The notes under the pieces are model-generated. The model saw only the letters and a program-made list of their open reading frames with translations. It did no database searches and was not told the DNA's origin. The position numbers and the translations under genes are program-made. A stretch of DNA of 55,480 nucleotides from assembly GCA_045540855.1 (NCBI GenBank), contig JAZQHZ010000293.1:1-55480 (forward strand). The letters are read 5' to 3'. Below are positions 20,597 to 50,440 of this stretch, one piece after another. The DNA comes from Clostridia bacterium. GTDB taxonomy: Bacteria; Bacillota; Clostridia; UBA1381. The stretch's first letter is position 1; every line of letters begins with the position of its first letter.

Positions 20597-20611
20597 AATA
20601 TTACCCCTTTC

Positions 20612-24326: not shown

Positions 24327-24372
24327 ATAATTTTTCCTCCTGTAAGATTAATGGTATCAGTGAAATAACGCC

Positions 24373-24401: not shown

Positions 24402-24426
24402 TAATATAGAATCACCTACTGTATCT

Positions 24427-24455
24427 ATATTAACAAATGTTGGTGATTTTTGCAA
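24427..24455 (-). promoter_or_regulatory. Predicted sigma-A promoter for the two URO-D methyltransferase genes
   Basis: Minus strand: TTGCAA (24455-24450), a 17-nt spacer ending in TGt, then TAATAT (24432-24427). It faces the plus-strand promoter at 24373-24401. Confidence 0.45.
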
Positions 24456-24556
24456 TGACAATCAAGCAAAAAAGCAAAATTTTACAAAAAATAATAATAA
24501 AATCATAGATAAAAATATGAAATGAATGTAATATATAAGAGAAGGGAAGAATTGCG

Positions 24557-25702: not shown

Positions 25703-25719
25703 TAAAGGAGACTTAAGAA

Positions 25720-26358
25720 ATGAGTATTTTAGAAGAAATCAGCACATTGTTACAGCAAGGAAGAAGCTCTAAGGTAAAGGAAGCGGTGAACGAAGCTCTT
25801 GAAAATGGAGTTTCACCGAATGAAATTCTTGAAAGCGGGCTTATGGCAGGAATGGCTATTGTAGGCGAAAAATTCAAGAACAATCAGGTTTTTGTGCCGG
25901 AAGTACTGGTCGCTGCCCGTGCAATGAACACAGGTATAGAAATTTTAAAGCCATATATGGTTATGGCTGAAACGAATAATAAAGGAAAAATAGTTATAGG
26001 AACCGTAAAAGGAGATTTACACGATATCGGAAAGAATCTGGTTAAAATAATGCTGGAGGCTAACGGACTGGAAGTTTTTGATCTTGGTGTTGATGTGGCA
26101 TCCGAAACCTTTGTCGAAAAAGCAATGGAGCTGAACGCTGATATTATTTGCTGCTCTGCACTTCTCACAACTACAATGGATGAGATGAAATTGGTTGTTG
26201 AAAAAGCAGTAACTGCCGGAATACGTGATAATATTAAAATTATGATAGGCGGTGCACCGGTTACACAGGAGTTTTGTGATAGCATAGATGCGGATTATTA
26301 TACCTCAGATGCACCAAGTGCAGCAGACATGGCATTGAAAATCTGCAGTGGGATGTAA
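25720..26358 (+). CDS. Corrinoid (cobalamin)-binding methyl-carrier protein, MtaC/MtbC/MtqC-like
   Basis: ORF track 212 aa. AAGGAGA SD, 17 nt after the regulator's stop. The N-terminal helical cap is followed by a Rossmann domain with the full B12 signature: GTVKGDLHDIGKNLV (DxHxxG), CSALLTTTM (SxL), IMIGGAPV (GG). Confidence 0.9.
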   Translation: MSILEEISTLLQQGRSSKVKEAVNEALENGVSPNEILESGLMAGMAIVGEKFKNNQVFVPEVLVAARAMNTGIEILKPYMVMAETNNKGKIVIGTVKGDLHDIGKNLVKIMLEANGLEVFDLGVDVASETFVEKAMELNADIICCSALLTTTMDEMKLVVEKAVTAGIRDNIKIMIGGAPVTQEFCDSIDADYYTSDAPSAADMALKICSGM

Positions 26359-34700: not shown

Positions 34701-35091
34701 ATTTTGTAATATCATGATATGCAAATTTTACTCCTGAGCCACCTGCCTCCTGAGCACGCAGTGTCATAAATACAGAGTTATTCGTTGCACCTGACGCCTT
34801 GTTCAGCTTCATTGAATATTTGGTTATCACATCACCGGCTTCACTGCCTGCAAGCGAAAGCATATTATCTATTTTTCCTACACGGTCAAATGCAAGAACT
34901 CCCTTATCTGAGTCACTTGATATTGTGTACTCTGCATTTTCACAGAAATCCACGCTTTCATCAAAGCTCTCATAATATATCCTGTTTCCCGGAATGATAA
35001 CCGTCTCTTCAGCTGATACATTTAGTACTGCAATATTTTGTGATACCATCATAACGCACAGTACACCGCTTAAGAGTTTATTTAATTTCAT
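31714..35091 (-). CDS. SLH-anchored cell-surface multidomain protein: two FGPE/SRDR-type LamG-like modules, Ig-like modules, three short 'atrophied Ig' repeats, Gly-rich linker, C-terminal SLH triad
   Basis: The ORF track starts at the ATG at 35139. I prefer the ATG at 35091 (MKLNKLLSGVLCVMMVSQNIAVLNVSA, a signal peptide) with a GGAGAAATAGT SD. SLH repeats: FADVSADFWAAHNIYEMVNMGVV, FDDVSPDAWYSPYVASAVEAGII, FADTSEISDYAKDAVMSLNSMGIV. Confidence 0.85.
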   Translation of the reverse strand: MKLNKLLSGVLCVMMVSQNIAVLNVSAEETVIIPGNRIYYESFDESVDFCENAEYTISSDSDKGVLAFDRVGKIDNMLSLAGSEAGDVITKYSMKLNKASGATNNSVFMTLRAQEAGGSGVKFAYHDITKYSTENGDFSGARSRDRISIAYSDGSDDMTQWNILSMSDTMGIEDTSSRSFADYYTFTTAVVGDNAYYSVTSQDGETVSSIEADISEYDVAQKGKFYLGAQNCSAYIDEIEMYEAIEISEISIEAENMELTQGETTAFNIRVRDTEGAWHSLDKSCNSSFAFEYDSEKLMVDAENATITAITADGLSLDITAKDFYTGKTLTSSFAFEAMTDEKAVALAKDALALPFDTVDGDFTLPVSGIYNTEIIWTSSSSKVRINGENAKVIASQEDTVIELKAQITRGESSEYKSFEVLLKGIELPERDVILKGELVYSEDFDNESDIDSDIAGAIDNETIKYEDGALHIDAKGKVFTGPSFGPELSGAIAEFDAKQLGCSANSNAQFSMGLMTKGTSSYRFAYSDVSAYNTEDNTLTGATSRDRIFLGRTASSSNMGQWTLYGAGKSPIGILNRSNRSFDKYYTFSAVAAANTLLLSVMDDETLLDTVSYYNPSMKLDKGTVSFNTQSTELMLDNIRVYEAIGVRSLEFAMDEAALKPGESAEFKLLLTDGSVLDKKYYDAIEFECDGAVTIDTDKSEISADAEGEYIIKLTLRDYADERVSLTNSAILLVSDVADEIEKIAAELDITEYVENTDGIVSDFELPDSIGDAKLTWASDNSAIIINGTDAEVSRGDKNIKVILTASITLDSITVLKQFEVVVEKTYPATEAIALDYKLVDIPKRTKEDIDLPEQGRYGTEISWKSSNTSAISDDGEVRRAKENKTVKLTATFTNGEESEKYYYNVVVIGTGGSSGGSGGGGGGGSFGGSALSGITIEKPIVNVPEQKAFAFADVSADFWAAHNIYEMVNMGVVSKDTYFRPNDPITREEFVKLVVESFKLYNPAATAEFDDVSPDAWYSPYVASAVEAGIIQGVSETSFGSGNMITRQDIATIIARMLEKQGVDMSVSGNEFADTSEISDYAKDAVMSLNSMGIVTGMGDNRFEPMSNATRAQAVVMILRAIG
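32299..32361 (-). repeat. GC-rich low-complexity tract encoding a Gly/Ser linker (GTGGSSGGSGGGGGGGSFGGS)
   Basis: The run ggagccgccaccgccaccgccgcctgaaccgccggaggagccgcc is strikingly GC-rich within an AT-rich gene. It separates the ectodomain from the SLH triad. Confidence 0.9.
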
Positions 35092-35142
35092 ACTATTTCT
35101 CCATTCCGCCGCTTGTGCGGCACAATTTTTGTATGGCATGAT

Positions 35143-37803
35143 TTATCTGGGTTCTCCTCTGTAAATCACAATCTGCTGCGGTACATAGCTATATGCACGC
35201 ATAAATACAATATCTCCCTTGATTATATCGCTAAGCTCTCCTACACGGAATTCACCTTCGTTATAATCCATAATATAAACCTGAGCCGATGCCGTAGCCA
35301 TCAGATGACGCATTTCCTTCGCTGCAGGTGCATCTCCGTATGCTTTTGAAACATTAATGGAGTATGTTGTTGAATTTATGTCGCTGACCTCTCCAAATAC
35401 CGTATGCAATGGAGTAAGTGCCACATCATTATACTCGTCTATCATAATATTTGACGGAATACGCTCGTAGAATCTACCCGTAATCTCATCGCCTCTTAAT
35501 AATATCGTAAAATCACGTATCTGATTTTTCTCATTTACACTGTAAAGAATAACATCGCCCTTCTTGAGCTCTGATGCCAGTGTTTGTGAATACGCCCATG
35601 AATCCTGAGTTGAATTATGCAAATCTGCACTCTGAGTCTTGAATGTCAACTCCTTACCTGCTGTAAGCATAGTAACCTCAACTGCATCCTCGTCTCCGTC
35701 ATTTACAACCACACTCTTTGTTATTACTCCCACTGTACGCTTCATTAAAGCATCAGTCAGCCTTGCATTTATTCCCGGCTGCTCAATTGTACGTCTTATA
35801 ACAAGCACTCCTGCAGTTCTGTCGGGACGTGTATCATAAATATCAAAATTACTGTAATTGATATCAGTGCTGAATGCACTTAAGGTACCTGCCGCATAAT
35901 CAGAAGCATCTGCTTTGTTTATCTCATTTTCGAGCGGAAGATAGAATATCTTGGTCGTTGCACCGATATGATAGTTTATACCAATGTTATAACGATACAT
36001 TCTCGTATCTGTATTTCTTACACTCTTATCAAGCGAAAAGGCATCGTCGCATATTCCATATTCTGTCATATCCTGTGCAGTATAAAGCTTTAAAATTGTA
36101 CCCTCTTCATCCGTTGTGAACTTCAACAGCTGCTGTATGCCTTTGCCTAAAGCATCCATAAGTCCTTTTTCTATAAGATTTTTCTTGTCAAATTTTATCT
36201 TCTTATCATTGACTATCAGATTTTCTGCCACAGGCATACGCTCAATTGTTCCGTCATCCAAGAGCATTTTAAACTTCATATCCTGAGAAAGAACATCCGG
36301 ATTATCATAGCTAAGTCCCATAAGCCATCCGTAGCTTTCGTTCTTTGATGAATATTCAACATCAACTACTTTCCCGAAATAGCTTATATATGCTGTATAG
36401 TTATTTCCTACACGCAATGCTGCTTTTTCAAAATCAAACTGCTTTGAAATCGGGTATGTTTTATCGCCTACGGTTATGCTCTCTTCGTCATAGCTCTTTA
36501 AAATATCACTTACCTTTGCGGTTGATGCCCATATTGTAATACGTTCATCCTCACCTATTGCTATACTTACAGCATAGCCGGTGCTCATATCTGAAAGCTC
36601 TTTTCTTTTTCCGTCAATGTAGATAAATATATCCTTTTCACGCAACTCCATAAGCCCGTAATTTTTGAAATACAGACTTTCGTTTGAGATATTGACGCCC
36701 TCTGTCACGTCATCGGTTGTCTGATATACCATTACAACCTCATATTTACCGTCATCATCGTTATCCACAAGCTTAATAAAGCCCTCTTCCGGCTTTAAAA
36801 GCTCATCATCATAGCTTTGACGGTAGCATCCGTTATATATAACCGCAGCTGATTCCAATCTGTATTTTTCATTGTCTCTGCCTTCAACTGCTTTTATAAT
36901 TTCTCCACCCGATACTGAAGTTATATCCTTTGCATCAATAGTAACTGAGCTGTTTTCACCCGGCACCGGTGCTATTGCCTTTAACGTGTATGTATCCGCA
37001 TTTTTGTCCTTTAAGGCAAATACCGTTACTTCATAGCCAAGATATTCTGTACATTCCTGACCACCAAGCTCAATTCTTTCACCGTCGACAATTATATACG
37101 GCAAAATCCCCGTCTCCGAGCCATCTATTGAGGTATTTCCGTCATAGGTAAGAATACCTTCAAATCTCACCAAATCCAGATACTCCTCCATTGCCCGGAT
37201 ATCGGTTGCGGTATAAATTGCATCACCGCCTTCAACCTGAGTAAGCTTCATTACAGGAATTTCCATTGCCTGATAAAGTAACGTCACGAGCTGTGCTCTT
37301 GTAAGCGGAAGCTGCGAAGCGTAACCAAGGTCAAGTCTCGAAGCTGTTTTTATATATCCGTCGGGATATCCGCCTTCAAAATTACAGTAATCAGCATATC
37401 CCATAGCTGAAAGCAATATTTTAACCGCCTCTGTATAAGTAATTTCCCTGTCAGGATTAAATGCTGAGCTTCCGGTTCCGTTTATTGCACCTATGTCTGC
37501 AAGTGCATTTACATATCCGAAATACTCCGCCTCACTGTCTATATCGGAAAAATATCCGTTAGTTGTTGACGGTTCAAGAGCAAGGAGCTTGGCTGCACTT
37601 ATTGCAAACTCACCTCTTGTAACCGTACTATCCGGACGGAAGGTTGCGTCCTCATATCCGCTTACTATATCAAGCTGTTCAAGAATATCAAGCTTATTTG
37701 CGACATTTTCGTTATCAATATCTATATAGGCACCCTGTGCAGGGATACTTAAAAGCATTGATATAATCATCATCGCACATATCGCCAATTTTTTCAAGTA
37801 CAT
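35143..37803 (-). CDS. Cell-surface protein with N-terminal SLH triad and ~650-aa beta-rich region of unknown function
   Basis: ORF track 886 aa. Signal peptide MYLKKLAICAMMIISMLLSIPAQGA. SLH repeats: ILEQLDIVSGYEDATFRPDSTVTRGEFA and FSDIDSEAEYFGYVNALADIGAINGT. The start lies 1 nt after the upstream stop, and its GGAGGAA SD sits inside the upstream gene. Confidence 0.8.
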   Translation of the reverse strand: MYLKKLAICAMMIISMLLSIPAQGAYIDIDNENVANKLDILEQLDIVSGYEDATFRPDSTVTRGEFAISAAKLLALEPSTTNGYFSDIDSEAEYFGYVNALADIGAINGTGSSAFNPDREITYTEAVKILLSAMGYADYCNFEGGYPDGYIKTASRLDLGYASQLPLTRAQLVTLLYQAMEIPVMKLTQVEGGDAIYTATDIRAMEEYLDLVRFEGILTYDGNTSIDGSETGILPYIIVDGERIELGGQECTEYLGYEVTVFALKDKNADTYTLKAIAPVPGENSSVTIDAKDITSVSGGEIIKAVEGRDNEKYRLESAAVIYNGCYRQSYDDELLKPEEGFIKLVDNDDDGKYEVVMVYQTTDDVTEGVNISNESLYFKNYGLMELREKDIFIYIDGKRKELSDMSTGYAVSIAIGEDERITIWASTAKVSDILKSYDEESITVGDKTYPISKQFDFEKAALRVGNNYTAYISYFGKVVDVEYSSKNESYGWLMGLSYDNPDVLSQDMKFKMLLDDGTIERMPVAENLIVNDKKIKFDKKNLIEKGLMDALGKGIQQLLKFTTDEEGTILKLYTAQDMTEYGICDDAFSLDKSVRNTDTRMYRYNIGINYHIGATTKIFYLPLENEINKADASDYAAGTLSAFSTDINYSNFDIYDTRPDRTAGVLVIRRTIEQPGINARLTDALMKRTVGVITKSVVVNDGDEDAVEVTMLTAGKELTFKTQSADLHNSTQDSWAYSQTLASELKKGDVILYSVNEKNQIRDFTILLRGDEITGRFYERIPSNIMIDEYNDVALTPLHTVFGEVSDINSTTYSINVSKAYGDAPAAKEMRHLMATASAQVYIMDYNEGEFRVGELSDIIKGDIVFMRAYSYVPQQIVIYRGEPR

Positions 37804-37804
37804 A

Positions 37805-40800
37805 TTATTCCTCCATAGTATCCAATAGCTTTTTTACGTATTCATCGTGGAAATCTATGCCAAGATATTTTTGTAATCTTTCTTTTGTTGCAGTTGTATC
37901 AATATTATTTTTATTCAAAATATTGTCAACCTCTTCAATAAGCTTATTCCATAAAATATCCGCTACATATTCATTAGGCATATATATAATATTTTCTGCA
38001 ATTTTATCAACAGCCAATTTGTCAAACATAAGGCTCTTATCCGTATATATACCCTTTTTTAGTGTATTGGATAAGCCTTCTATTTCACTGTTGAGCTTAT
38101 AGATAGACTCTTTGTCACCCACAATTCGGGCAGGCATTACCGTAAGGGTATTGTTACCTGACGTTATTGTAGTATAACCACTGCCGTATTCTGACTGAGT
38201 GTATTTTGAATCAAAAAGCTTCCACGTTGAATAATCCTCTTTTACTCCATTCAAGCTGTCCTCATGAGTATCGTATACCGAGCTTAGCACATCACCCTTA
38301 TATGTAGTATAGGTAAGTGTTCCGTTCTTATCTGCCGAATACTCAATCTTTGTCTGCTTCATCGTCGACTTGAACTCATCAAAGCTCATATTGGTTTCGC
38401 CCTTTGATGCTATCTGCATAACAAATCCCGTATGAGTTCCATCCATACATATTTCATTCTCCGATAAAAGGATGTTGGAGCCCGTATGCTTAACCGCATC
38501 GCCCCAGCGATATGCTAATGTGTTATGCGATGAAGCATTTAACGGCTTTATTGCCGTATATATTTCGCCCGAAAGCAGGAATATCCAGCCATCCTCTTCA
38601 TCCACACGCTCAAACTGTGACTTTGGTATGTATCCGTGAGAATACGGAAGCTGAGCAATATCATCTATATGATAAAGTCCGATTATCGTATTTTCGTGCT
38701 GCATATAGTCAAATGCCGGATAATTATAGAAGCCACTGAAATAGTGATGCTTTGACTTGGTATCTGACGGTCCTAACGGGCCCGGCTGTCCAAAGGTAAT
38801 AAACCTCTTATCGTTACCCTCAATTGTAGCAGTCATCGAGATTTCCTGGTGTCCGCCTGCCACCCATATTCCCTTTGAATTATAGAACTTATCGCCCTTA
38901 TATGTTACATCATGGAACGGGTTATTATAATTTACAATACAACCCAACGCATAGCCGTCACCGAAATATGTATATTTGCAAAGCTCATCCATATCCTCGT
39001 CATCCGGCAAATGATGTGTCTTTCTTCTTTCCTTGTTTACAAGTCCGGTCTTATCAGCATTTGCAATTTCGTATACTACATCGTCAAGCTCTGCCGTAAG
39101 GAATGAATAAACTGCCGGCTGTACGCCGTATGAGCCTACATTCTCTGTCCACTTTGTATCCTCGGTTTCAAATCTCTGTGCAAGGTGGAACAGCTTTGCA
39201 AGTACATCCGTATTGAAGTATGTTCTTCCGTGAGCACCCGTCAGACGGTCACCCATTGCATCAATTGATGAGTCTGTATACAACCAGTTAAGAAAATCCG
39301 TACAAAGTCTTCTCATACTTTCGTCCTTTGTATAATTGCATACAGTTTCAAGTGCAATCAAATCAATGCCGATATATGTAGAGTCATACTCGGTCATACC
39401 GTATTTATAACGGAAATTCATCCAGTTAATAATATATTGCTTATATTCCTCAGCCGTTTCACGTCCTGTTTTACCACCATACATTATTTTATCCGGGAAC
39501 ATTTCACCTATGAGATATGCATCCGTTAAATTCACAATACGGTGGTTTTCACTTATCATTGTTTTGTCCGAGCCATAATATTCACCCAGGAGCAGCTCGT
39601 CAACATTTTCCCACGCTTCATCGCTTGCATTAAGGAAGTCCTTAAGCTCATTTCTCACTACCAAAAGAATATTAACTATAAAGTCCACATTACTTGATAC
39701 TCCTGCTGTTGAGCTTTCCTGCTTACCAAGTGCAACCAGCCAGTTAAGCTCAGTATCATATGAGCGTCTTTTGGGCTGAAGTGCCAGAAGTGAAGTTACA
39801 TATGTTGCATAGGCTAACTGCGAAACATTAAGCACGCCAAGAGTTGATGCATTTCTCAATATTTTATAGCAGAAATTCTTATTACGTATATCCTGAGTAG
39901 CTTTTAAATACTGAGCTCTGTTTTCATATTTCTTTATCGGAACAATTTCTGCTTCACAGTATTTACCGTTATATTTAATTCCAAGCTTTACATTTTCCGT
40001 AGTGTTTTCATCAATTCTTAATGAGAAGCTTTCACTTACGATTTCCGCATTACCCGAAAGCACCTCATACTGTGCCTTTTGCGTCACATAGGTATATCTG
40101 CCCTGCGAATCAAGTGCCTTTACACCTATAAGTGAGGTTATCTGGCGATTTGAGAAAATGTCTGTTGTAACACCGCTGTTCACAGCTTCTATTGCCACGA
40201 TTTCACCAGGTGTATTGTCATCCATTCTCTCAACTACAATATCATCAAGATAAATTTCTGTATTTTCTGCATTAAATACAAAGCCGCCGCTTTCCTTCAC
40301 CGATACGACAAAGCATATTTCACTCTCACCGAGTCTGAAAATCTGCTCATCGCCATTCGTTTCAAGCTCAAAATCGTACCATACATTTTTCTCTGTATTT
40401 AACTCTTCACCGCTTTGTGTACCGATTCTGAGGTACTTATTTTCCTTATCCAGACAATACACTGCGGGCAATCCATATTGACCACCCGTCATTTCCGGAT
40501 CTGACGGAATCTGCTGACGGTAATAAACAGAAAAGCTTGTGTTATATCTGTTGTCCTCTATTCTATCGTTTAAGATTTTTACTCTGCCCTTGATTTTATA
40601 ATTTCTCCACGATAAATCACCATAGAACGGTGAAAACTCGTCTCTGAGCTTATAGACCTTATTTCCGTCAACATCTGTAACAATATCTTCTGCAGGAACC
40701 GTGAAAAATTCACTGTACCAATTATCCTCGAAGTTTTCGTTTATAACAGTTCCCGAAAGTCTTTGCTCAACATTTAATGTTGTTTCTATTTTTACACTGT

Positions 40801-42325
40801 CAAATTCAGCAAAGAGCTTTCTCTCGCCCGTTTTTTCTGCCGTTACGACTTCTCCTGAAGAAACAAGTCCGTCCTGAAGAGAAAGAATATATCTGTCCGG
40901 CATTACACGCTCTGTATTGCCATTCAAGGTAGCCCACACGGAAAATGCCGTACTTGCTTCAACCGGTATGCTTGCATTTTCAAGCATTATCTGTGCCGCT
41001 GAATACGGACTTACATAGACCGGCACACTCTTTGTGATTCCGTTATATGTTACAGTAAGATTGTGGTTTCCCGGCACGTTTGTCACAACTGCCATTCCGT
41101 CATAGCTTCCGGCATCTGTTTTGGTATCAATGTTTCGGATAACCCTGTATTCGTCACCCTCATACATTCCCTTTAAGTAAAATTCAATCTTTTCACCCAG
41201 GAAAACATTCGGTCTGTCAACTACAATTTCATAATCTGAAAAAGCATATTCCTTTTGAGCATTTATTGTATATGAAGCTGTCTCTCCTCCGTAAGTGGCC
41301 TTCACTTCAAATTTGCCTGCTTCCTTTGCAACTACCTTACCCTCGGAAATATCAAGCTTTTCAGCATCATATTCCCAGCTGAGCATATTAAACGGAATCA
41401 CTTCGCCACGCTCCGTCTGAGCATAGATATCATAGGTATCGCCCACAAGCATTACCTTTGCCGAGGTCTTGATTTCAGCTTTATTTAAAACACTTATCTC
41501 ACGTACTGAAATATTATCGTACCATACAGTAGTTCCGTGTGCTCCAAGCTGAACATTTCCTTTTTCGATTCGTGCCATAGGCGATCCGCCGCCCGCAATT
41601 GTGTCAACCATATCGGTTGACTGCTCCACACGTGACAGCAATTCACCCTCAGAGGTATACATCTCAACTCTTATAAATGTGTCAGACATATACATCTTCA
41701 TATGTACATAATCCGAAAATGATCTTGATGACACATCAAGTGCGCCGGTTGTATCGCCCATTGCAGTCCAGAACCAGCTGCTTCCGATGTTGAAGCTACC
41801 TCTTGAACGTGCAATTAAAAGCTTGTCACGTGTAGCGGTTTTACTGTTATACGTCTTTGTTTCCCAGTTATAGTTATTTATCTCTGTATAGAGCATATTA
41901 TATGCCGGAGATGAGTTCGAAGTTTTTCTTCCACTGATAAAAAGTCCGCCGTTAGAGCCTGCACTACATCCTGAAAGCATAACATCAGCCTCAACAAGGA
42001 AATTCTTCAATTCAGGTCCGAAATTCTTTGTTGCAATATTCTTGTTTATTGCATTTATATATAATGCATTTGAGCCTTTTGAATCTTTTCTGATGCTGAA
42101 TTCGTTTGAAGGTAAATAAGCTTCATTAATTTTCTCACCTTCAAAGTCTTCAAAAAATAACTCATCACCCTCTAAAATCAGGTAATTTGAGAAATCTCCA
42201 TCATTCACAGCCGTTGCTGTATCTCTCTCGACAAACACATCATCATCCATTTCGTCTGCCATTACGTGCGGTATACACGCCGCAAGCATTGACATAGTTA
42301 TAAATAACGATATTATTCTTTTCAT
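37805..42325 (-). CDS. Secreted 1506-aa enzyme candidate: FGPE/SRDR-type LamG-like module, Ig-like modules, second beta-sandwich, then an uncharacterised alpha/alpha plus beta-sandwich lyase/hydrolase-like catalytic region ('family X'), and a helical C-terminal tail
   Basis: ORF track. Signal peptide MKRIISLFITMSMLAACIPHVMA. Family-X motifs: MISENHRIVNLTDAYLIGEMFPD, FRYKYGMTEYDSTYIGIDLIALETV, TGAHGRTYFN, WVAGGHQEISMTATIEG, HENTIIGLYHIDD. Confidence 0.75.
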   Translation of the reverse strand: MKRIISLFITMSMLAACIPHVMADEMDDDVFVERDTATAVNDGDFSNYLILEGDELFFEDFEGEKINEAYLPSNEFSIRKDSKGSNALYINAINKNIATKNFGPELKNFLVEADVMLSGCSAGSNGGLFISGRKTSNSSPAYNMLYTEINNYNWETKTYNSKTATRDKLLIARSRGSFNIGSSWFWTAMGDTTGALDVSSRSFSDYVHMKMYMSDTFIRVEMYTSEGELLSRVEQSTDMVDTIAGGGSPMARIEKGNVQLGAHGTTVWYDNISVREISVLNKAEIKTSAKVMLVGDTYDIYAQTERGEVIPFNMLSWEYDAEKLDISEGKVVAKEAGKFEVKATYGGETASYTINAQKEYAFSDYEIVVDRPNVFLGEKIEFYLKGMYEGDEYRVIRNIDTKTDAGSYDGMAVVTNVPGNHNLTVTYNGITKSVPVYVSPYSAAQIMLENASIPVEASTAFSVWATLNGNTERVMPDRYILSLQDGLVSSGEVVTAEKTGERKLFAEFDSVKIETTLNVEQRLSGTVINENFEDNWYSEFFTVPAEDIVTDVDGNKVYKLRDEFSPFYGDLSWRNYKIKGRVKILNDRIEDNRYNTSFSVYYRQQIPSDPEMTGGQYGLPAVYCLDKENKYLRIGTQSGEELNTEKNVWYDFELETNGDEQIFRLGESEICFVVSVKESGGFVFNAENTEIYLDDIVVERMDDNTPGEIVAIEAVNSGVTTDIFSNRQITSLIGVKALDSQGRYTYVTQKAQYEVLSGNAEIVSESFSLRIDENTTENVKLGIKYNGKYCEAEIVPIKKYENRAQYLKATQDIRNKNFCYKILRNASTLGVLNVSQLAYATYVTSLLALQPKRRSYDTELNWLVALGKQESSTAGVSSNVDFIVNILLVVRNELKDFLNASDEAWENVDELLLGEYYGSDKTMISENHRIVNLTDAYLIGEMFPDKIMYGGKTGRETAEEYKQYIINWMNFRYKYGMTEYDSTYIGIDLIALETVCNYTKDESMRRLCTDFLNWLYTDSSIDAMGDRLTGAHGRTYFNTDVLAKLFHLAQRFETEDTKWTENVGSYGVQPAVYSFLTAELDDVVYEIANADKTGLVNKERRKTHHLPDDEDMDELCKYTYFGDGYALGCIVNYNNPFHDVTYKGDKFYNSKGIWVAGGHQEISMTATIEGNDKRFITFGQPGPLGPSDTKSKHHYFSGFYNYPAFDYMQHENTIIGLYHIDDIAQLPYSHGYIPKSQFERVDEEDGWIFLLSGEIYTAIKPLNASSHNTLAYRWGDAVKHTGSNILLSENEICMDGTHTGFVMQIASKGETNMSFDEFKSTMKQTKIEYSADKNGTLTYTTYKGDVLSSVYDTHEDSLNGVKEDYSTWKLFDSKYTQSEYGSGYTTITSGNNTLTVMPARIVGDKESIYKLNSEIEGLSNTLKKGIYTDKSLMFDKLAVDKIAENIIYMPNEYVADILWNKLIEEVDNILNKNNIDTTATKERLQKYLGIDFHDEYVKKLLDTMEE

Positions 42326-42339
42326 AGTCCACCCCTCTG

Positions 42340-44091
42340 TTAAATTCCGTAAACCTTTTTGCTTCCGTTGTATGTAAGCGTAATTTTTCCGCTGTCATAT
42401 TCGCTTTCAAGATATGGCGAATTGTATAATTTATATTCTGACTTATCAAACGGCTTGCCGTTTATATAAGTATTATCATCTTTAATTTCAAGATTTCGGT
42501 ATTTTGCTCCGTTTTCGCTAAGCTGTGGTAAATCATTGATTATTAATGCCGCTTCATACGAATTTTCACCGCTAAATACCTCAACGGCAAAGCAGCCACG
42601 TGATGAATCGACTATTATTTCACGGTTTGCATATGCACCCTCTGTATTTTTTGAATAGCTTCCGTTTATGCATATTCTGAGTGCCACATCTCCGATTGCT
42701 GCTACAATTGTGTTTTTACCGTATTCTACTTTTTCAAACTCAGCCTCCGGGAAATATATATGGATATATTGAAGCTGATTTTTATCCTTTATATCCCAAT
42801 AGCATAAAAGCAGATTTTTATCCTGCACAAATTTCTGACACAGGCAGTTGCAATCGCCTGCCCATACGCCGTGCATACCATAATCGTACATATCAGGATT
42901 TCCCGGATGCGACGAATATATCGACGCCTTCGGATTTTTACCGATTGTTAACGACCACGCTTGCTCCTGATGTCCGCAAAGCCATGTATATGCCACATTC
43001 TCATATGGATTATCTCTTCCGGCAACACAACCCATACAGTAGCCATCGCCCTTGTAGAAGTACTTATAAATCCTACCCTTTATATATAAATCATCGGGAA
43101 TTGTGTATAAACCCACACTGTCCTTAACTTCAAAATTGCTTTCTGTTTTACCTTCAACAATGGCCGCAACCTCCTCATCAAACATAAATGACGAGGTTGC
43201 CATATACATCATACCTGTTACCTGCGTACTGTCATTCACAAATTTTCCGGCAGGTGCTGCAAGGTTTATAATTGAATATACTCCTATTTCAGGATTTTCC
43301 ATAACGTTCGGATACACTCTGCCCTTAGGACCGCCCGCATAACCGTTTGCCGAATGAATAAACAGACTTGCCGACATTGTGTTCATCAAATCCGATGCCA
43401 GTTTTCTTAATTTATCATCCTGGGCAAAGTCATAAAGATTTATCAATGACATAAAATTTATCTCGTAATATGAAGTTGAGTCGTATTCGCTCCAGCCTCG
43501 CTTTAAATGTTTTTCAAGGAATTTATAAAGCGAATTTTTAATTATCGGAAGCCTTGTGTTTCCATCCAAACCGTCATAAAATACGCCGTCTCCGAAAAGC
43601 TGAGCTGCCACAAGCTCGCTTGACATAAAGCACAGCTTGTGATTCTCACTCATCGGCTCAAAATAAGGTGCATATTCCACCTCAAGCAAAGCCTTTCTGA
43701 CCTGCTCCCACTTTTCCTCACTTATATTCACCTTACCTCTGTAAAGTGCATAGAGTCTTACCATTGCACTTATTGAAAAGTCGTCTACTGCAATAAAGCG
43801 TGATTTTCCGCTTTCCTCCTCTGCCCTTTTCACGGTAAGTATTCTGTCAATATATTCATCATAATTTCTGTCAGGATTTACGCACATCTTGCTCATAATG
43901 TAGCCTGCTTCGTTATGTGCCATAACGCCCGCACCTGTTGTCTTTTTAATCAGCTGCGGCAATGCACGGAAACCCACTTCATTAAAATCAAGATTGTCAG
44001 GTATTTCCGGTAATTCATCCGCCACATACCCCGAACAAACCTTTATTGCATTTTCCTTTAATAAAGTCAAATCATAATCCAGTTTAATCAT
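42340..44091 (-). CDS. Signal-peptide-less (cytoplasmic) minimal member of family X (alpha/alpha plus beta-sandwich lyase/hydrolase-like)
   Basis: ORF track 583 aa. Starts MIKLDYDLTLLKENAIK. Motifs: MSENHKLCFMSSELVAAQLFGD, HLKRGWSEYDSTSYYEINFMSLINL, GGPKGRVYPN, WLCGHQEQAWSLTIGK, DKNLLLCYWDIKD. Confidence 0.75.
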   Translation of the reverse strand: MIKLDYDLTLLKENAIKVCSGYVADELPEIPDNLDFNEVGFRALPQLIKKTTGAGVMAHNEAGYIMSKMCVNPDRNYDEYIDRILTVKRAEEESGKSRFIAVDDFSISAMVRLYALYRGKVNISEEKWEQVRKALLEVEYAPYFEPMSENHKLCFMSSELVAAQLFGDGVFYDGLDGNTRLPIIKNSLYKFLEKHLKRGWSEYDSTSYYEINFMSLINLYDFAQDDKLRKLASDLMNTMSASLFIHSANGYAGGPKGRVYPNVMENPEIGVYSIINLAAPAGKFVNDSTQVTGMMYMATSSFMFDEEVAAIVEGKTESNFEVKDSVGLYTIPDDLYIKGRIYKYFYKGDGYCMGCVAGRDNPYENVAYTWLCGHQEQAWSLTIGKNPKASIYSSHPGNPDMYDYGMHGVWAGDCNCLCQKFVQDKNLLLCYWDIKDKNQLQYIHIYFPEAEFEKVEYGKNTIVAAIGDVALRICINGSYSKNTEGAYANREIIVDSSRGCFAVEVFSGENSYEAALIINDLPQLSENGAKYRNLEIKDDNTYINGKPFDKSEYKLYNSPYLESEYDSGKITLTYNGSKKVYGI

Positions 44092-44164: not shown

Positions 44165-45748
44165 TCATCTGAATGTCTTATACCATTCATTCGCTGCATC
44201 AATCATTTCCTGACCGCCGTTTGCAAGGAATTCCTCAACAAACTGGTCAAAATAATCAAGCGGCTTTTCACCTGTGATGATTTCTACATATACCTCTTCT
44301 CTCTGCTTATCCAGAAGCGAGCTATACTTTGTCATTTCTTCAAGGTCTACGATAAGAGCATTTTCAATCTTAGCATAATTGGTATTCTTATCTGCCCACT
44401 CATACTTCTTCTTTGTAAGCTCGTCTACATTCTCTGTTCTCCATTCAATAGGATATATTCCGCCGATTGAGAAAATATTTGCTGCACCGATCTTTGCACG
44501 CTCTGCTGATGATGAGAAGCCCTCACGTGAAATAATCGCTCCGCTTTCTGATCTGTCCCAGTGCTCTCCTTCAAATCCGTAAACAGAAATATTGTACAGC
44601 TCCGGAGTTGTATTTACTGTATTGATAATCTCTAAAATCTTATCAAGCTTTGCTTCATCTTTTTCAAGCTGCTTACCAAATACAATACCACCCATCTGGA
44701 GTGCTCCGCCTCCGAAGTTTCCGTAAACATCGCCATTACCCTTCGGCGGTTTACCGATAGCATAGGTAGCATCCTCGCCTGCAATGCTCTTAAAGTCACG
44801 GTAGAATGCACTTCCCTTATCCTCCGGACCCTGCGGCTCAATTACGTGGTAATACATACCGTTTGCAGTGTAGCCGATTCTTCCGTTCAGGAATGCCTGT
44901 GAGTTTGACCAGTGTCCGCCTGTATTCTCGCCTGTGAGGAATTCAGGGTCAATGATGCCATCAGCATACCACTTTGCAAGCATAGCAAGTGCTTCCTTCA
45001 TTTCCGGCTGAATACCCGAATAAACAAGCTCGCCGTCCTTTTCACGCCACATTGCATTTGTTGTGGTCATATCTCTCGGAAGGAATCCGAATGCACCGAA
45101 TATACTGTTAAATATACCTTTATCAGATAAACCGTATGTATCCTTTATACCATTGCCATCCGGGTCTTCATTTCGGAATTTATAGAATGCCTCTTCAAAT
45201 TCCTCAATAGTTTCAGGAATCTTGTTGATACCTACATTCTTTAACCAGTCATCACGCCATACTGATGCAATATGGAAACGATTGTTATAGTTATATAACG
45301 GAATTGCATAGTTTACACCGTCAACCTTTGAGAATTTCCACGACTCAGGATCATATCCGTCAACTGTTGCTGCAATTGCAGGTGCCTTTTCACGAATCTT
45401 TTCCTCGCTCACTTCAGCAAGTACGTTCTGATTTACATAGTTGTGGAATGCCTTTGAGCTTGTTGAAACGAACACGTCCGGAACCTCTCCTGTTGCAATT
45501 CTGATGTTTAAAAGCTCATCCCACTTACTTCTTTCAATGTACCATACATTGAGGTCTACATCAAACATTTCTTCAATGTACTGCTCAACAGGTGAATTCT
45601 CGTCCATCGGACCATCACAGTACATTAACCAGTCAATGGTCATTTTCTCGCCCTCAGCCGTCTTCTTTTCACCGCACGATGCAAGCATTGAGCATGACAT
45701 CACCGTTGCCATAAAAGCAGCCGTCAGTCTTAATAATTTCTTTTTCAT
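44165..45748 (-). CDS. ABC transporter extracellular solute-binding lipoprotein (family 1, LplA/YtcQ-like)
   Basis: ORF track 527 aa. Lipoprotein signal MKKKLLRLTAAFMATVMSCSMLASC (lipobox LASC). Adjacent to two permease genes. Confidence 0.8.
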   Translation of the reverse strand: MKKKLLRLTAAFMATVMSCSMLASCGEKKTAEGEKMTIDWLMYCDGPMDENSPVEQYIEEMFDVDLNVWYIERSKWDELLNIRIATGEVPDVFVSTSSKAFHNYVNQNVLAEVSEEKIREKAPAIAATVDGYDPESWKFSKVDGVNYAIPLYNYNNRFHIASVWRDDWLKNVGINKIPETIEEFEEAFYKFRNEDPDGNGIKDTYGLSDKGIFNSIFGAFGFLPRDMTTTNAMWREKDGELVYSGIQPEMKEALAMLAKWYADGIIDPEFLTGENTGGHWSNSQAFLNGRIGYTANGMYYHVIEPQGPEDKGSAFYRDFKSIAGEDATYAIGKPPKGNGDVYGNFGGGALQMGGIVFGKQLEKDEAKLDKILEIINTVNTTPELYNISVYGFEGEHWDRSESGAIISREGFSSSAERAKIGAANIFSIGGIYPIEWRTENVDELTKKKYEWADKNTNYAKIENALIVDLEEMTKYSSLLDKQREEVYVEIITGEKPLDYFDQFVEEFLANGGQEMIDAANEWYKTFR

Positions 45749-45777: not shown

Positions 45778-46653
45778 TTATCCTTTTAAAGATCCAACCA
45801 TAACGCCCTGAACAAAATATTTCTGCAGGAACGGATATACCAATATAATCGGTAAAATTGTAACAATAGTGGTTGCCGCCTTGATTGCTTCTGTTGTCGG
45901 CTCACTCATATTGCTTACTTCCATATTGACAAACTCGGATGAGCCGTCAAGAATGATTCTTCTGAGTATTACCTGGAGAACGTACTTGTCAGTATCTCTT
46001 ATATAGAGCAGACACGGGAACCACGAGTTCCAGTTTGCAACCGCTGTCCATAATGCCACTGTTGCAAGAATTGATTTTGATAACGGAAGAATGATTGTGA
46101 AAAGTATTCTCATATCTCCTGCACCGTCAATTCTTGCTGCCTCTTCAATTTCTTCGGGAAGTCCCATAAAGAAATTTCGGATAATAAGCATATTGAAGGT
46201 ATTAACAAGTGCCGGTAACACCAGTGCTGCGTGAGTATCCATCAATCCAAGATTTCTGATAAGGATATAGTTCGGAATCATTCCGCCTGCAAAGAACATT
46301 GTGAATACTATTATTCCTGTCCAGAATCCTCTGTGCACGAGGTATCTCTTTGATAAGGGATATGCCGCAAGTGCTGATACAACAAGTGTCATTATTGTTC
46401 CTGCTACCGTTATAAGAAACGAATTAGCAAAGCCTGTAAATATCGCCGAGGATTTAAGAACCTTCTGAAATGCTCCTAAATACAGCTCCTTCGGGAAAAG
46501 GTGTAAACCAAATTCGCTTGCTGTTTCCGGTGATGAAATCGAAAGTGTTATTACGTTCAAAAACGGAACAAGGGCTATAATTGCTACAATAAGCATATAT
46601 ACATATATTGCAGCGGTAAAAATCTTTTCTGATAAGCTTAATCTTGTATTCAT
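45778..46653 (-). CDS. ABC sugar transporter permease (LplC/YtcP-like)
   Basis: ORF track 291 aa. EAA loop: EEAARIDGAGDMRILFTIILP. Clear paralogue of 19727..20596 (both end in the near-identical YPF[VL]QKYFV[KQ]GVM[IV]G...KG). Confidence 0.85.
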   Translation of the reverse strand: MNTRLSLSEKIFTAAIYVYMLIVAIIALVPFLNVITLSISSPETASEFGLHLFPKELYLGAFQKVLKSSAIFTGFANSFLITVAGTIMTLVVSALAAYPLSKRYLVHRGFWTGIIVFTMFFAGGMIPNYILIRNLGLMDTHAALVLPALVNTFNMLIIRNFFMGLPEEIEEAARIDGAGDMRILFTIILPLSKSILATVALWTAVANWNSWFPCLLYIRDTDKYVLQVILRRIILDGSSEFVNMEVSNMSEPTTEAIKAATTIVTILPIILVYPFLQKYFVQGVMVGSLKG

Positions 46654-46671
46654 TTACACATTTCCTCCTTA

Positions 46672-47619
46672 TCACCAGATTCCGTAATCGCCGAACTTCT
46701 TTGCCGCTGTATTTGCCAGCAACACAAGTCCGAAGGATATTACATTTTTGAATATATCTACCGACGTAGCAAAGCTATATTTAAAGTCCACAAGTCCCAT
46801 TCGGTATACATAGGTTGATATTACGTCAGATACACTGTAAACCGATGAATTATACATATTGATAATCTGGTCAAAGTTATCGTTCAACAGCTTACCTATC
46901 GACATAATAAGCATTATCGACACAATTGGCATAATCGACGGAATTGTTATATAGAACATCTGCTTCATTCTTGATGCACCGTCAATCGACGCCGCCTCAT
47001 ACAGACCTGCATCAATACTTGTAAGTGCCGCAAGGTAAATAATTGAGTTCCAGCCCATTTCCTTCCATACCGATGTGAAAACAAGAATCCATCTGAACCA
47101 GCCCTTGTCTGCCATAAAGTGTATAGGCTCAAAGCCAAGCTTCATCAATATTACATTTACAACACCTCTCGATGGTGAAAGAAGCTCCATAAATATACCT
47201 GCAAGAACTACCCACGAAAGGAAGTGCGGCATATAGCTTACTGTCTGAATAACTCTCTTATAGCTGCTTATTCTTATCTCGTTAAGCAACAGCGCAAATA
47301 TTATAGGCATCGGAAAGCCTATCAAAAGCTGCATAAGACTTATCGTAAGTGTATTTCCCAGTACAGTCGCAAAGTCACGACTGCCTAAGAAGAGTTTGAA
47401 ATTTTCAAAGCCTACCCATTCACTGCCCATTATACCGTCTGCAAACTTAAAATCCTTGAATGCTATTAACAGACCGTACATCGGACCGTAATGGAATATT
47501 ATGTAATATATCAATGCCGGAAGAAGTGCCAGAAATAAATATCTCTGCTTATAATAAAGCGAAAGAGTATATTTTAATCCACTTTTCCTTTTAACTGCAT
47601 TAGATGTTTTTGCTCGCAT
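46672..47619 (-). CDS. ABC sugar transporter permease (LplB/YteP-like)
   Basis: The ORF track extends to a TTG at 47652, which would overlap the upstream gene. I prefer the ATG at 47619 (MRAKTSNAVKRK), preceded by AGAGGAGG. EAA loop: YEAASIDGASRMKQMFYITIP. Confidence 0.85.
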   Translation of the reverse strand: MRAKTSNAVKRKSGLKYTLSLYYKQRYLFLALLPALIYYIIFHYGPMYGLLIAFKDFKFADGIMGSEWVGFENFKLFLGSRDFATVLGNTLTISLMQLLIGFPMPIIFALLLNEIRISSYKRVIQTVSYMPHFLSWVVLAGIFMELLSPSRGVVNVILMKLGFEPIHFMADKGWFRWILVFTSVWKEMGWNSIIYLAALTSIDAGLYEAASIDGASRMKQMFYITIPSIMPIVSIMLIMSIGKLLNDNFDQIINMYNSSVYSVSDVISTYVYRMGLVDFKYSFATSVDIFKNVISFGLVLLANTAAKKFGDYGIW

Positions 47620-47641
47620 AGTTGCCTCCTCTAAGCTTATT

Positions 47642-50383: not shown

Positions 50384-50429
50384 CAACAAAAAATCAGCAC
50401 ACATTCCGGTTTAGGGAATGTGTGCTGAT
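50384..50429 (-). terminator. Rho-independent terminator
   Basis: Perfect 15-bp stem atcagcacacattcc (50393-50407) / ggaatgtgtgctgat (50415-50429) with a 7-nt loop. On the minus strand it is followed by TTTTTTGTTG. Confidence 0.85.
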
Positions 50430-50440
50430 TTATATCAGCT

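What the first reader, a model, noticed from the sequence alone, without database searches (positions are those of the whole stretch)
37805..44091. Uncharacterised three-member enzyme family ('family X'): secreted giant, cytoplasmic minimal form and a third copy at 52896..55480
Three proteins share a ~600-aa region that I cannot assign to any CAZy family by eye. They are the C-terminal 700 aa of the 1506-aa protein, all of the 583-aa protein, and the 838+-aa protein.

Conserved blocks:
- SENH[RK] followed by a helical stretch;
- [KR][YR]G[MW][TSG]EYDS..Y..[ID];
- G...[GS]R[TV]Y;
- then a beta-rich half containing GHQE (in 2 of the 3) and a [IL][IL]..[YR][HW][ID].D block.

Alternating amphipathic helices followed by a beta-sandwich, plus an Asn-His pair and downstream Arg/Tyr, recall heparinase II/III-type and oligo-uronate lyases. 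The GHQE block sits where such lyases carry GHGH-like motifs.

The locus has one surface-exposed giant and one leaderless minimal copy. Together with an ABC importer and a cytoplasmic GH88/105, this fits an endo-lyase outside and an exo/oligo-lyase inside. This family is a candidate new PL (or GH) family.
Basis: partly seen in the sequence, partly recalled or inferred. Interest (0 to 1): 0.72.

Follow-up and report, generated by a model that had tools for sequence, protein, structure and literature searches.

The report
Uncharacterised lyase-like glycan enzyme family
Three genes in this gut-Clostridia sugar-utilisation locus belong to a large protein family with no database model and no solved relative, whose predicted shape and gene partners suggest (without any activity data) a new family of enzymes that cut acidic, uronic-acid-containing polysaccharides.

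Summary

It is not a three-member family: a profile search found 3,987 cluster representatives. No member tested matches Pfam, NCBIfam or any PDB sequence.

An AlphaFold model (pLDDT 91) has a helical N-domain followed by a beta-sandwich. Its 26 best PDB fold matches are all polysaccharide lyases (PL12, PL35, PL8, PL17, PL15) or dermatan-sulfate epimerase, but weakly (E 1e-8, TM ~0.4). The N-domain alone matches nothing specifically. Profile-profile comparison with PL35 is null.

Conserved residues (E149-N150-H151, E202, S205, Y208, R258, Y260, Q375, H444) have the order and spacing of the Asn-His/Trp...Tyr...His sets of those lyases.

The family is fused to GH88/105 unsaturated-uronyl hydrolase domains in both orders. 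It also recurs beside GH88, GH67 and KDPG aldolase.

Most likely (about 0.5) it is a new lyase family: secreted copies outside the cell, ABC import, a cytoplasmic oligo-lyase, then a GH105-like enzyme. A hydrolase on the same fold is the main rival. No activity has been tested.

The parts
42340..44091 (-). 583-aa leaderless 'minimal' family-X protein (whole protein = X domain); predicted cytoplasmic
   Evidence: (AF2 pLDDT 91: helices 10-312, beta 320-583)
37805..42325 (-). 1506-aa secreted giant. Order of parts: signal peptide, LamG-like (PF06439-like) + Ig-like modules, second LamG-like domain, family-X domain, ~110-aa helical tail
   Evidence: (PF06439 E 9e-4)
38138..39958 (-). family-X domain of the giant (aa 790-1396). 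Keeps E-N-H, E..S..Y, R.Y, Q375 and H444 equivalents; position 395 is Q
   Evidence: no Pfam hit
52896..55480 (-). third family-X protein, 5'-truncated by the window edge (>=860 aa). Order of parts: end of a LamG-like domain, Ig-like region, X domain, small C-terminal beta domain
   Evidence: orthologue in L001 is 950 aa
53130..54896 (-). family-X domain of the third copy (aa 173-761)
50634..52868 (-). 744-aa secreted protein made of two LamG-like + Ig-like modules; probably non-catalytic glycan binding; same transcription unit as the third copy
50391..50431 (-). intrinsic-terminator-like hairpin (17-bp stem, T tail) that separates the third-copy/744-aa unit from the main operon
47642..50209 (-). 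855-aa secreted LamG-like/Ig-like protein; first gene of the main operon
45778..47652 (-). two ABC permeases (BPD_transp_1)
44165..45748 (-). 527-aa lipoprotein, putative solute-binding protein of the ABC importer (no Pfam hit; lipobox LASC read by eye; 84% identical orthologue in the syntenic locus L001)
35143..37803 (-). 886-aa SLH-anchored surface protein of unknown function
31714..35139 (-). 1141-aa surface protein: two LamG-like modules, aBig_2 repeats, C-terminal SLH anchor
29404..31665 (-). membrane sensor/regulator with Cache-like and AraC HTH domains
27382..29391 (-). 669-aa leaderless protein with a C-terminal GH88/GH105-type unsaturated-uronyl hydrolase domain (best PDB relatives 3k11, YteR)

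Best explanation
Family X is a large, previously unmodelled family of carbohydrate-active enzymes. It is built like the heparinase-type polysaccharide lyases: an N-terminal alpha-helical incomplete toroid followed by a C-terminal beta-sandwich.

Most likely it cleaves uronic-acid-containing glycans by beta-elimination. Inferred roles, by motif order only:
- N150 (with H151) neutralises the uronate carboxylate.
- H151 or Y208 abstracts H-5, and Y208 protonates the leaving O-4.
- R258, Y260, Q375, H395 and H444, from both domains, line the cleft.

Proposed pathway in this locus:
1. The two secreted copies (the giant and the third copy) carry LamG-like/Ig-like binding modules. Together with SLH-anchored partner proteins they attack the polymer at the cell surface.
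2. The lipoprotein and two-permease ABC system imports the fragments.
3. The leaderless 583-aa copy trims them in the cytoplasm, producing a 4,5-unsaturated uronate at the non-reducing end.
4. The GH105-like 669-aa protein removes that residue.

Shown here: the paralogy, the size of the family, the predicted fold, the conserved residues, and the gene fusions and neighbourhoods. Inferred: the chemistry, the residue roles, the endo/exo split and the substrate, which is unknown.
For: **Fold**
- The AF2 model has pLDDT 91 and pTM 0.92, with helices at 10-312 and beta strands at 320-583.
- Its 26 best PDB matches are all lyases of the toroid + beta-sandwich class or dermatan-sulfate epimerase. Examples: 4fnv E 1e-8, 6hzn, 8khv/8khw, 9o3q, 1n7q, 4ok4, 3a0o. 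Foldseek probability is 0.97-1.00 for 25 of them and 0.72 for 1hn0. The first glycoside hydrolase (GH127) comes at E 6e-4 with probability 0.54.

**Conserved polar residues** across 165 representatives at <=50% mutual identity: E149 96%, N150 86%, H151 88%, E202 91%, S205 95%, Y208 88%, R258 92%, Y260 80%, Q375 84%, H395 77%, H444 99%.
- The N-H...(57 residues)...Y order and spacing, plus a His in the beta domain, parallel the PL40 set. That set is N245-W/H246, Y305 and H485/H487, as reported in PMC12915356.
- They also parallel the PL15, PL17 and PL21 sets, but that comparison rests on my own recollection.

**Fusions**
- GH88/105 domains are fused to X in both orders: X-GH88 in P0033 and L058, GH88-X in P0102 and P0146.
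- The three fused representatives that were aligned (P0033, P0102, P0146) keep the conserved X residues, apart from H395 to A in P0146. L058 was not checked.

**Neighbourhoods**
- A separate GH88/105 gene lies within 10 kb in the window, in Paenibacillus swuensis (two copies, plus a PL35 lyase) and in L012. In the metagenome scan, 6 of 120 short loci carry GH88/105, counting the L058 fusion (4 of 44 loci >=8 kb).
- KDPG aldolase lies directly downstream in L009 and L010.
- GH67 alpha-glucuronidase occurs in 3 loci, and MFS_2 transporters recur.

**Locus logic**
- In the conserved locus (window, L001-L004, L007) the X paralogues are the only recognisable catalytic domains.
- UniRef names one member 'Heparin-sulfate lyase N-terminal domain-containing protein'.
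Against: - No activity data exist.
- Structural similarity is weak: TM about 0.4, rmsd 10-14 A, 8-13% identity.
- The N-domain modelled alone (pLDDT 89.5) has no PDB match below E 0.03. Lyases rank no better there than cellobiose 2-epimerase, GH76 or GH88.
- There is no sequence-level link to any lyase family:
  - Pfam and NCBIfam scans are null.
  - The family profile has zero PDB sequence hits at E<=10.
  - hhalign against a 120-sequence PL35 profile (DSE-like_N + Hepar_II_III_C) gives probability 0.2%.
- Catalytic-residue equivalence rests on motif order only. Model coordinates could not be superposed.
- Most neighbourhoods hold no uronate-specific gene. The commonest neighbours are Opp-type ABC transporters and GFO/IDH/MocA oxidoreductases. 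Some loci are rich in alpha-mannan or beta-glucan hydrolases: GH92, GH125, GH76, GH97, GH94.
- Several conserved carboxylates (E149, E202, D453, E491) would also suit a hydrolase or a metal site.
- A GH88 fusion fits an enzyme acting after GH88 as well as one acting before it.
- The window's GH105-like gene may instead serve the adjacent locus, which has three alginate-lyase-like proteins.
Confidence: 0.5

Rival explanations
1. Family X is a glycoside hydrolase (for example a glycuronidase, or an enzyme that acts on the oligosaccharide after the unsaturated uronate is removed). It would have adopted a lyase-like toroid + beta-sandwich scaffold and would use conserved carboxylates such as E149 and E202 as catalytic residues.
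For: - E149 (96%) and E202 (91%) are conserved at least as well as N150 and H151. D453 and E491 are also conserved.
- The N-domain alone resembles GH76, GH88 and GH146 toroids as much as lyase toroids.
- Neighbourhoods are rich in hydrolases: GH92 x2, GH125 and GH97 in L012; GH76 and GH97 in L011; GH94 in L008; GH52 in L005; GH10 in L006; GH67 and GH2 in metagenome loci.
- A GH88 fusion is equally logical for the step that follows GH88.
Against: - With the whole model, all 26 top PDB matches are lyases or dermatan-sulfate epimerase. The first hydrolases (GH127, GH146) appear only at E 6e-4 to 3e-2 with probability <=0.54.
- The Asn-His...Tyr...Arg...His pattern is the lyase signature.
- In the conserved Clostridia locus no other lyase is present to supply the GH105-like enzyme, unless the neighbouring locus does so.
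Confidence: 0.22
2. Family X is an epimerase or isomerase. It could be a uronate C5-epimerase like dermatan-sulfate epimerase, which shares the fold and the first chemical step of these lyases. It could instead be a sugar 2-epimerase like the AGE/cellobiose-2-epimerase toroids.
For: - DS-epimerase 1 (6hzn) is the second-best full-length match, at E 2.6e-8.
- Cellobiose 2-epimerase is the best N-domain match, at E 0.03 with probability 0.90.
- GFO/IDH/MocA oxidoreductases and xylose-isomerase-like TIM-barrel proteins recur as neighbours.
Against: - Two of the three window copies are secreted multi-domain surface proteins in a catabolic locus. That is an odd place for an epimerase.
- The GH88/105 fusions call for an enzyme that creates or exposes an unsaturated non-reducing end.
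- The N-domain matches are not significant.
Confidence: 0.07
3. The family is already classified in CAZy, as a recent or small PL or GH family without a Pfam model or a solved structure. In that case the finding is a new member rather than a new family. This bears on novelty, not on mechanism.
For: - dbCAN and CAZy could not be queried here.
- New PL families appear often: PL43, PL44, PL_New1 and PL_New2.
- UniRef gives one member a heparin-sulfate-lyase-domain name.
Against: - No PDB sequence relative exists, so PL8, 12, 15, 17, 21, 23, 33, 35 and 39 are excluded at sequence level.
- PL34 clusters with PL15 by sequence.
- PL43, PL44 and PL_New1 are beta-helices, and PL_New2 is a jelly roll.
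- All source names found were 'hypothetical protein'.
- No paper mentions the one named accession.
Confidence: 0.15
4. The domain is a non-catalytic glycan-binding or structural module.
For: It occurs in surface proteins beside many binding modules.
Against: - A constellation of polar residues (E, N, H, E, S, Y, R, Y, Q, H) is kept at 80-99% across representatives below 50% identity.
- Stand-alone leaderless cytoplasmic forms are common.
- Fusions to an enzyme (GH88/105) exist.
Confidence: 0.04

Closest known systems
PL12 heparinase III (PDB 4fnv, 4mmi, 5jmf)
   Same: Best full-length fold match (E 1e-8, probability 1.00). It has the same order of an N-terminal helical toroid followed by a C-terminal beta-sandwich and a similar size of about 600-660 aa. 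From my own recollection it uses an Asn / Tyr / His catalytic set, with the Tyr about 55 residues after the Asn.
   Different: Identity is 9-11% and TM 0.35-0.40. There is no Pfam (Hepar_II_III) or PDB sequence match. The N-domain alone is not specifically similar. X has fewer toroid helices (about 9-10 long helices).
PL35 GAGases / chondroitinase (8khv, 8khw, 9o3q; Pfam DSE-like_N + Hepar_II_III_C)
   Same: Ranks 3, 4 and 6 among fold matches. A PL35 gene lies about 5 kb from the family-X gene in Paenibacillus swuensis, next to two GH88/105 genes. By eye, it has an 'NNW ... EG.SYW' motif pair in the same order as X's 'ENH ... E.DS..Y'.
   Different: Profile-profile alignment of 165 X sequences against 120 PL35 sequences gives probability 0.2%.
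PL40 ulvan lyase Uly1040 (PDB 9VTK; PMC12915356)
   Same: It has the same two-domain architecture. Its published catalytic set is N245-W246 (His in some members), Y305 (60 residues later), D358, H485/H487 + Mn2+ and Y511, located at the domain interface. In X, N150-H151, Y208 (58 residues later), R258/Y260 and the beta-domain His residues follow the same order and similar spacing.
   Different: PL40 proteins are about 100 kDa and mostly from Bacteroidota. No sequence similarity was detected. The H-x-H/Mn site has no clear counterpart: X has G-x-Q375-x-(H377), and H377 is absent from the window copies.
Dermatan-sulfate epimerase 1 (6hzn) and PL15/PL17 oligo-alginate lyases (3a0o, 3afl, 4ok4)
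   Same: They are fold matches at E 3e-8 to 1e-5. PL15 and PL17 enzymes are cytoplasmic or periplasmic exo-acting oligo-lyases, which is the role proposed for the 583-aa copy. Their His-(54-56 residues)-Tyr spacing (my recollection) matches the 57-residue spacing from H151 to Y208.
   Different: There is no sequence-level relation. The epimerase does not cleave chains.
GH127 / GH146 beta-L-arabinofuranosidases (6ex6, 8k7x)
   Same: They also have a toroid followed by a beta-sandwich, and they give weak fold hits.
   Different: The matches have low probability (0.23-0.54). Their Cys/Glu/Zn catalytic site (my recollection) has no counterpart among X's conserved residues.

Membership tests
Heparinase II/III-type lyase superfamily (Pfam Hepar_II_III_C PF07940, DSE-like_N PF16332, Hepar_II_III_N PF16889, Alginate_lyase PF05426) | Significant sequence match to one of the family HMMs | tested here: not met
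   No hit for the 3 window proteins at E<=1. No hit for the giant's X domain at E<=0.01. No lyase hit for 20 diverse relatives at E<=0.1 or E<=10. hhalign against a PL35 profile gives probability 0.2%.
Heparinase II/III-type lyase superfamily | N-terminal (alpha/alpha)n toroid followed by a C-terminal antiparallel beta-sandwich | tested here: met
   AF2 model with pLDDT 91. The top 26 Foldseek PDB matches all have this architecture, E 1e-8 to 2e-4. Caveat: TM is only about 0.4, and the N-domain alone is not specific.
Heparinase II/III-type lyase superfamily | Catalytic Asn (neutraliser) + His/Tyr (base/acid) at the domain interface | tested here: inconclusive
   N150, H151, Y208, R258 and H444 are conserved at 86-99% and have the right order and spacing.
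Heparinase II/III-type lyase superfamily | Beta-eliminative cleavage yielding 4,5-unsaturated uronate | not testable with these tools
   This needs an enzyme assay. Indirect support comes from GH88/105 fusions and neighbours.
CAZy PL8, PL12, PL15, PL17, PL21, PL23, PL33, PL35, PL39 (families with solved structures) | Sequence homology to a family member | tested here: not met
   phmmer with the 583-aa protein and hmmsearch with the 16-sequence family profile against all PDB chain sequences both gave 0 hits at E<=10.
CAZy PL40 | Sequence homology to Uly1040 (9VTK) | tested here: inconclusive
   No PDB sequence or fold hit to an ulvan lyase. Whether 9VTK is in the local copy is unknown.
CAZy PL43, PL44, PL_New1, PL_New2 (recent families) | Family fold | tested here: not met
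   FdlA (taken here to be the PL43 founder, which is my inference), PL44 and PL_New1 are parallel beta-helices. PL_New2 is a beta-jelly roll. X is toroid + beta-sandwich.
Any CAZy family (dbCAN HMMs) | dbCAN or CAZy assignment | not testable with these tools
GH127/GH146 (DUF1680) | Fold and sequence match | tested here: not met
   Only weak Foldseek hits, probability 0.23-0.54. No Pfam hit.

The most novel reading that the evidence does not exclude
Family X founds a new polysaccharide-lyase family whose core activity is exo-acting 'uncapping'. It would eliminate whatever sits on O-4 of a uronic acid at or near the non-reducing end: a sugar, as xanthan lyase and the PL27/PL42 enzymes do, or even the methyl group of 4-O-methyl-glucuronate as methanol. 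This would leave an unsaturated uronate for the GH88/105 partner to remove.

That reading would explain three things:
- the recurrent X/GH88 fusions in both orders;
- the GH67, GH52 and GH10 (glucuronoxylan) and GH92, GH125 and GH94 (xanthan- or glucuronomannan-like) neighbourhoods;
- possibly the corrinoid methyltransferase genes lying between the window's two glycan loci.
Probability: 0.08. Interest if true: 0.85.

Novelty: new variant of a known kind. Interest (0 to 1): 0.6.

Why it matters
About 4,000 sequence clusters from gut Clostridia, Paenibacillus, Planctomycetota, Bacteroidota and many soil and water metagenomes carry this domain. No Pfam, NCBIfam or structural annotation covers it, so it is currently invisible to annotation based on those libraries; whether CAZy/dbCAN covers it could not be checked.

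If it is a lyase, it adds a new family to the enzymes that degrade acidic glycans. It would also explain loci, like this conserved Clostridia locus, that appear to contain no depolymerase at all.

The fusions with GH88/105 give a clear, testable hypothesis. The 583-aa leaderless protein is an easy target for expression.

Tried and rejected
**Sequence searches that gave nothing**
- Pfam and NCBIfam scans of the three proteins, the isolated X domain and 20 relatives gave no family.
- PDB sequence searches with the protein and with the family profile gave nothing.
- hhalign of the X profile against the window's three alginate-lyase-like proteins, the P. swuensis PL35 protein and a 120-sequence PL35 profile gave no signal. 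The hoped-for residue-level alignment to a known lyase could not be obtained.

**Structure**
- The N-domain-only model was meant to sharpen the fold assignment. Instead it showed that the helical domain has no specific PDB relative.
- Model coordinates are not exposed, so active-site geometry could not be checked.

- The genome scan with the close subfamily found only one human-gut Clostridiales MAG.
- A second word-indexed homologue search with 149 sequences returned only 15 proteins, none named.

**Ideas considered and rejected**
- Identity with PL43 and PL44 (beta-helix) or with PL_New1 and PL_New2 (beta-helix, jelly roll).
- PL34, which is related by sequence to PL15.
- GHQE as a catalytic GHGH-like motif; H374 is not conserved.
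- A specific xanthan or glucuronomannan substrate for the window locus. Its GH partners are absent from the window, so this is left as speculation.

**Literature**
- A search for the one named accession found nothing.

Full report
**What is there.** All genes of the region lie on the minus strand. The 583-aa protein (42340..44091), the C-terminal part of the 1506-aa protein (37805..42325) and the 838-aa ORF (52896..55412) are clear paralogues. BLASTP gives 24-28% identity over 470-750 columns, with E values of 2e-38, 2e-42 and 1e-69. HMM envelopes place the shared domain at residues 790-1396 of the giant and 173-761 of the third copy. The third ORF stays open to the last base of the window. 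It is therefore truncated by the window edge; its orthologue in a syntenic metagenome contig is 950 aa. The giant starts with a signal peptide and the 583-aa protein does not (read).

**The family is large and unannotated.**
- Pfam and NCBIfam give no family for any of the three proteins. The one exception is a weak LamG-type PF06439 hit in the giant's N-terminus.
- The PDB holds no sequence relative, either for the single protein or for a 16-sequence profile at E<=10.
- A word-indexed search found only 14 close relatives, all unnamed.
- An exhaustive profile search of 1.84 billion cluster representatives found 3,987 proteins at E<=1e-3 and 968 at E<=1e-30.
- Twenty diverse members also lack any relevant Pfam hit.
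- Names found were 'hypothetical protein'. One UniRef name differs: 'Heparin-sulfate lyase N-terminal domain-containing protein', for a Paenibacillus swuensis member.
- Members come from uncultured gut Clostridiales, Paenibacillus, Tepidisphaeraceae and a Bacteroidota-type PUL. Soil, sediment and freshwater metagenome contigs are inferred from the contig names only.

**Fold.** An AlphaFold2 model of the 583-aa protein is confident (pLDDT 91, pTM 0.92). It has a helical N-terminal half (helices from 10 to 312) and a beta-rich C-terminal half (320-583).
- Foldseek against the PDB returns heparinase III (PL12, E 1e-8) and dermatan-sulfate epimerase 1. It also returns PL35 GAGases and chondroitinase, PL8 hyaluronate, chondroitin and xanthan lyases, PL17 Alg17c and PL15 Atu3025.
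- All 26 best matches belong to this toroid + beta-sandwich class. The first glycoside hydrolase (GH127) appears at E 6e-4.
- The similarity is distant: TM about 0.4, rmsd 10-14 A, 8-13% identity.
- I then modelled the helical domain alone (residues 1-318, pLDDT 89.5). It has no PDB match better than E 0.03. Its weak hits mix cellobiose 2-epimerase, GH76, PL8, PL17, GH88 and GH146.

The lyase-specific signal therefore comes from the two-domain architecture and, presumably, the beta domain. It does not come from the toroid itself. This lowers confidence that the chemistry is beta-elimination.

**No sequence bridge to known lyases.** hhalign was run with the family profile against several targets:
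- the three alginate-lyase-like proteins of the neighbouring locus;
- the PL35 protein that sits near a family member in P. swuensis;
- a 120-sequence PL35 profile (Pfam domains DSE-like_N + Hepar_II_III_C).

None gave a signal; the best probability was 0.2-0.3%.

**Conserved residues.** I aligned 165 representatives (<=50% mutual identity) to the 583-aa numbering. The conserved polar positions are:

| Position | Conservation |
|---|---|
| E149 | 96% |
| N150 | 86% |
| H151 | 88% |
| E202 | 91% |
| S205 | 95% |
| Y208 | 88% |
| R258 | 92% |
| Y260 | 80% |
| Q375 | 84% |
| H395 | 77% (Gln in the giant) |
| P396 | 96% |
| H444 | 99% |
| D453 | 88% |
| E491 | 88% |

- All three window copies keep this set, apart from H395 to Q in the giant.
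- N150-H151 start a long helix and Y208 starts the next-but-one helix. This is the arrangement of the Asn-His/Trp and Tyr of this lyase class.
- In PL40 Uly1040 the published set is N245-W246 (His in some members), Y305, D358, H485/H487 + Mn and Y511 (PMC12915356). The N-to-Y spacing there is 60 residues, against 58 in X.
- The equivalence is by order and spacing only. I could not superpose coordinates.
H374 is present in only a quarter of members, and the commoner H377 is missing from all three window copies.

**Functional links.**
- Among 44 long family members, three carry a GH88/GH105 domain. A fourth fusion turned up in a metagenome locus.
- Both orders occur: X-GH88 in P0033 and L058, GH88-X in P0102 and P0146. 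P0033, P0102 and P0146 keep the conserved X residues, except H395 to A in P0146; L058 was not checked.
- Separate GH88/105 genes lie within 10 kb in three places. These are the window, P. swuensis (two copies, with a PL35-CBM35 lyase and GH52) and L012.
- A degenerate-DNA scan for the [FY]THAYFP...FDE motif recovered 120 metagenome loci, and 119 of them encode the family. Six carry GH88/105, one of them as the L058 fusion (4 of the 44 loci >=8 kb).
- By my rough prior for genomic GH88/105 frequency, that is about a ten-fold enrichment. No control set was available.
- Other uronate-related neighbours are KDPG aldolase directly downstream in L009 and L010 and GH67 alpha-glucuronidase in three loci. 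MFS_2 transporters and SDR or 2-hydroxyacid dehydrogenases also recur.
- The commonest neighbours are Opp-type ABC transporters and GFO/IDH/MocA oxidoreductases. Several loci are dominated by GH92, GH125, GH76, GH97 or GH94.

Overall, the context says 'cytoplasmic or surface enzyme of complex-glycan catabolism, often glycuronide-related'. It does not prove lyase chemistry.

**The locus.** The gene set is conserved in four other contigs from uncultured Clostridia, including a human-gut MAG. Its order is: third X copy, LamG/Ig protein(s), two permeases, lipoprotein SBP, minimal X, giant X, SLH-886, SLH-1141.
- A strong terminator at 50431..50391 splits it into two transcription units.
- The 744-, 855- and 1141-aa proteins and the giant's N-terminus share a repeated LamG-like + Ig-like module of about 330 aa. 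These look like binding modules.
- The X domains are the only recognisable catalytic modules in this conserved set.
- Downstream in the window come a Cache/AraC regulator and a leaderless 669-aa protein. Its C-terminal domain is GH88/105-type, with closest solved relatives 3k11 and YteR.

**Interpretation.** The best-supported reading (about 0.5) has three elements:
- Secreted X enzymes depolymerise or uncap an acidic glycan at the cell surface.
- Fragments are imported, and the cytoplasmic X protein produces a non-reducing-end unsaturated uronate.
- The GH105-like enzyme removes that residue.

The main rival (about 0.2) is a hydrolase on the same scaffold. Epimerase and non-catalytic readings are less likely. 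The substrate is unknown.

The GH105-like gene lies between this locus and a second one (27..21607). That second locus has a SASA-type acetylesterase, three alginate-lyase-like paralogues and its own ABC system. The hydrolase could therefore belong to either locus.

**Novelty.** Within what could be tested, the family is not any lyase family with a solved structure (PL8, 12, 15, 17, 21, 23, 33, 35, 39). It is not PL34, which clusters with PL15. It is not PL43, PL44, PL_New1 or PL_New2, which have different folds. CAZy and dbCAN could not be queried. I rate it a new variant of a known kind: a new candidate family inside a known structural and mechanistic class.

Noticed in passing
window 22146..26358 (22146..23249 -, 23325..24326 -, 24557..25702 +, 25720..26358 +): Two URO-D/MtaA-like methyltransferases, an AraC regulator and a corrinoid protein (MtgC/MtaC-like, E 7e-65) sit between the two glycan loci. 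Together they look like a corrinoid-dependent O-demethylase set, perhaps for methylated sugars such as 4-O-methyl-glucuronate. That last point is speculation.
   Followed up: partly
window 27..21607 (-): A second glycan-utilisation locus. It holds a >=1178-aa secreted protein with a SASA-type acetylesterase domain and a 1288-aa protein with a weak, sub-threshold CBM_4_9 hit. It also holds three paralogous proteins (938, 792, 1016 aa) with weak Alginate_lyase (PF05426) hits and no PDB sequence relative, an AraC regulator and an SBP_bac_1 ABC system. These may be another unclassified lyase group.
   Followed up: partly
window 31714..35139, 37805..42325, 47642..50209, 50634..52868: A LamG-like (PF06439 '3-keto-disaccharide hydrolase'-like) + Ig-like module of about 330 aa is repeated across four secreted proteins of the locus. 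PF06439 domains are also fused to family X in 4 of 44 distant members.
   Followed up: partly
window 27382..29391 (-), residues 1-335: The GH105-like protein has a 335-aa N-terminal extension with no Pfam hit and no match among the family-X relatives.
   Followed up: partly
L005 (Paenibacillus swuensis CP011388, 689486-711342): The family-X gene lies between a 2618-aa protein without domains and a GH52 gene. Further on come a PL35-CBM6/35 lyase and two GH88/105 genes. This is a cultured organism in which the family could be studied.
   Followed up: partly
L053, L011, L012: The family occurs beside GH67 + GH88 (L053). It also occurs in alpha-mannan-type sets: GH76/GH97 in L011, and GH92 x2/GH125/GH97/GH88 in L012. 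This hints at glucuronoxylan-, xanthan- or glucuronomannan-like substrates for some subfamilies.
   Followed up: no
window 35143..37803 (-): The 886-aa SLH protein has about 700 residues with no confident domain; the only hit is a sub-threshold NlpC/P60 match. It is conserved next to the giant in all syntenic loci.
   Followed up: no
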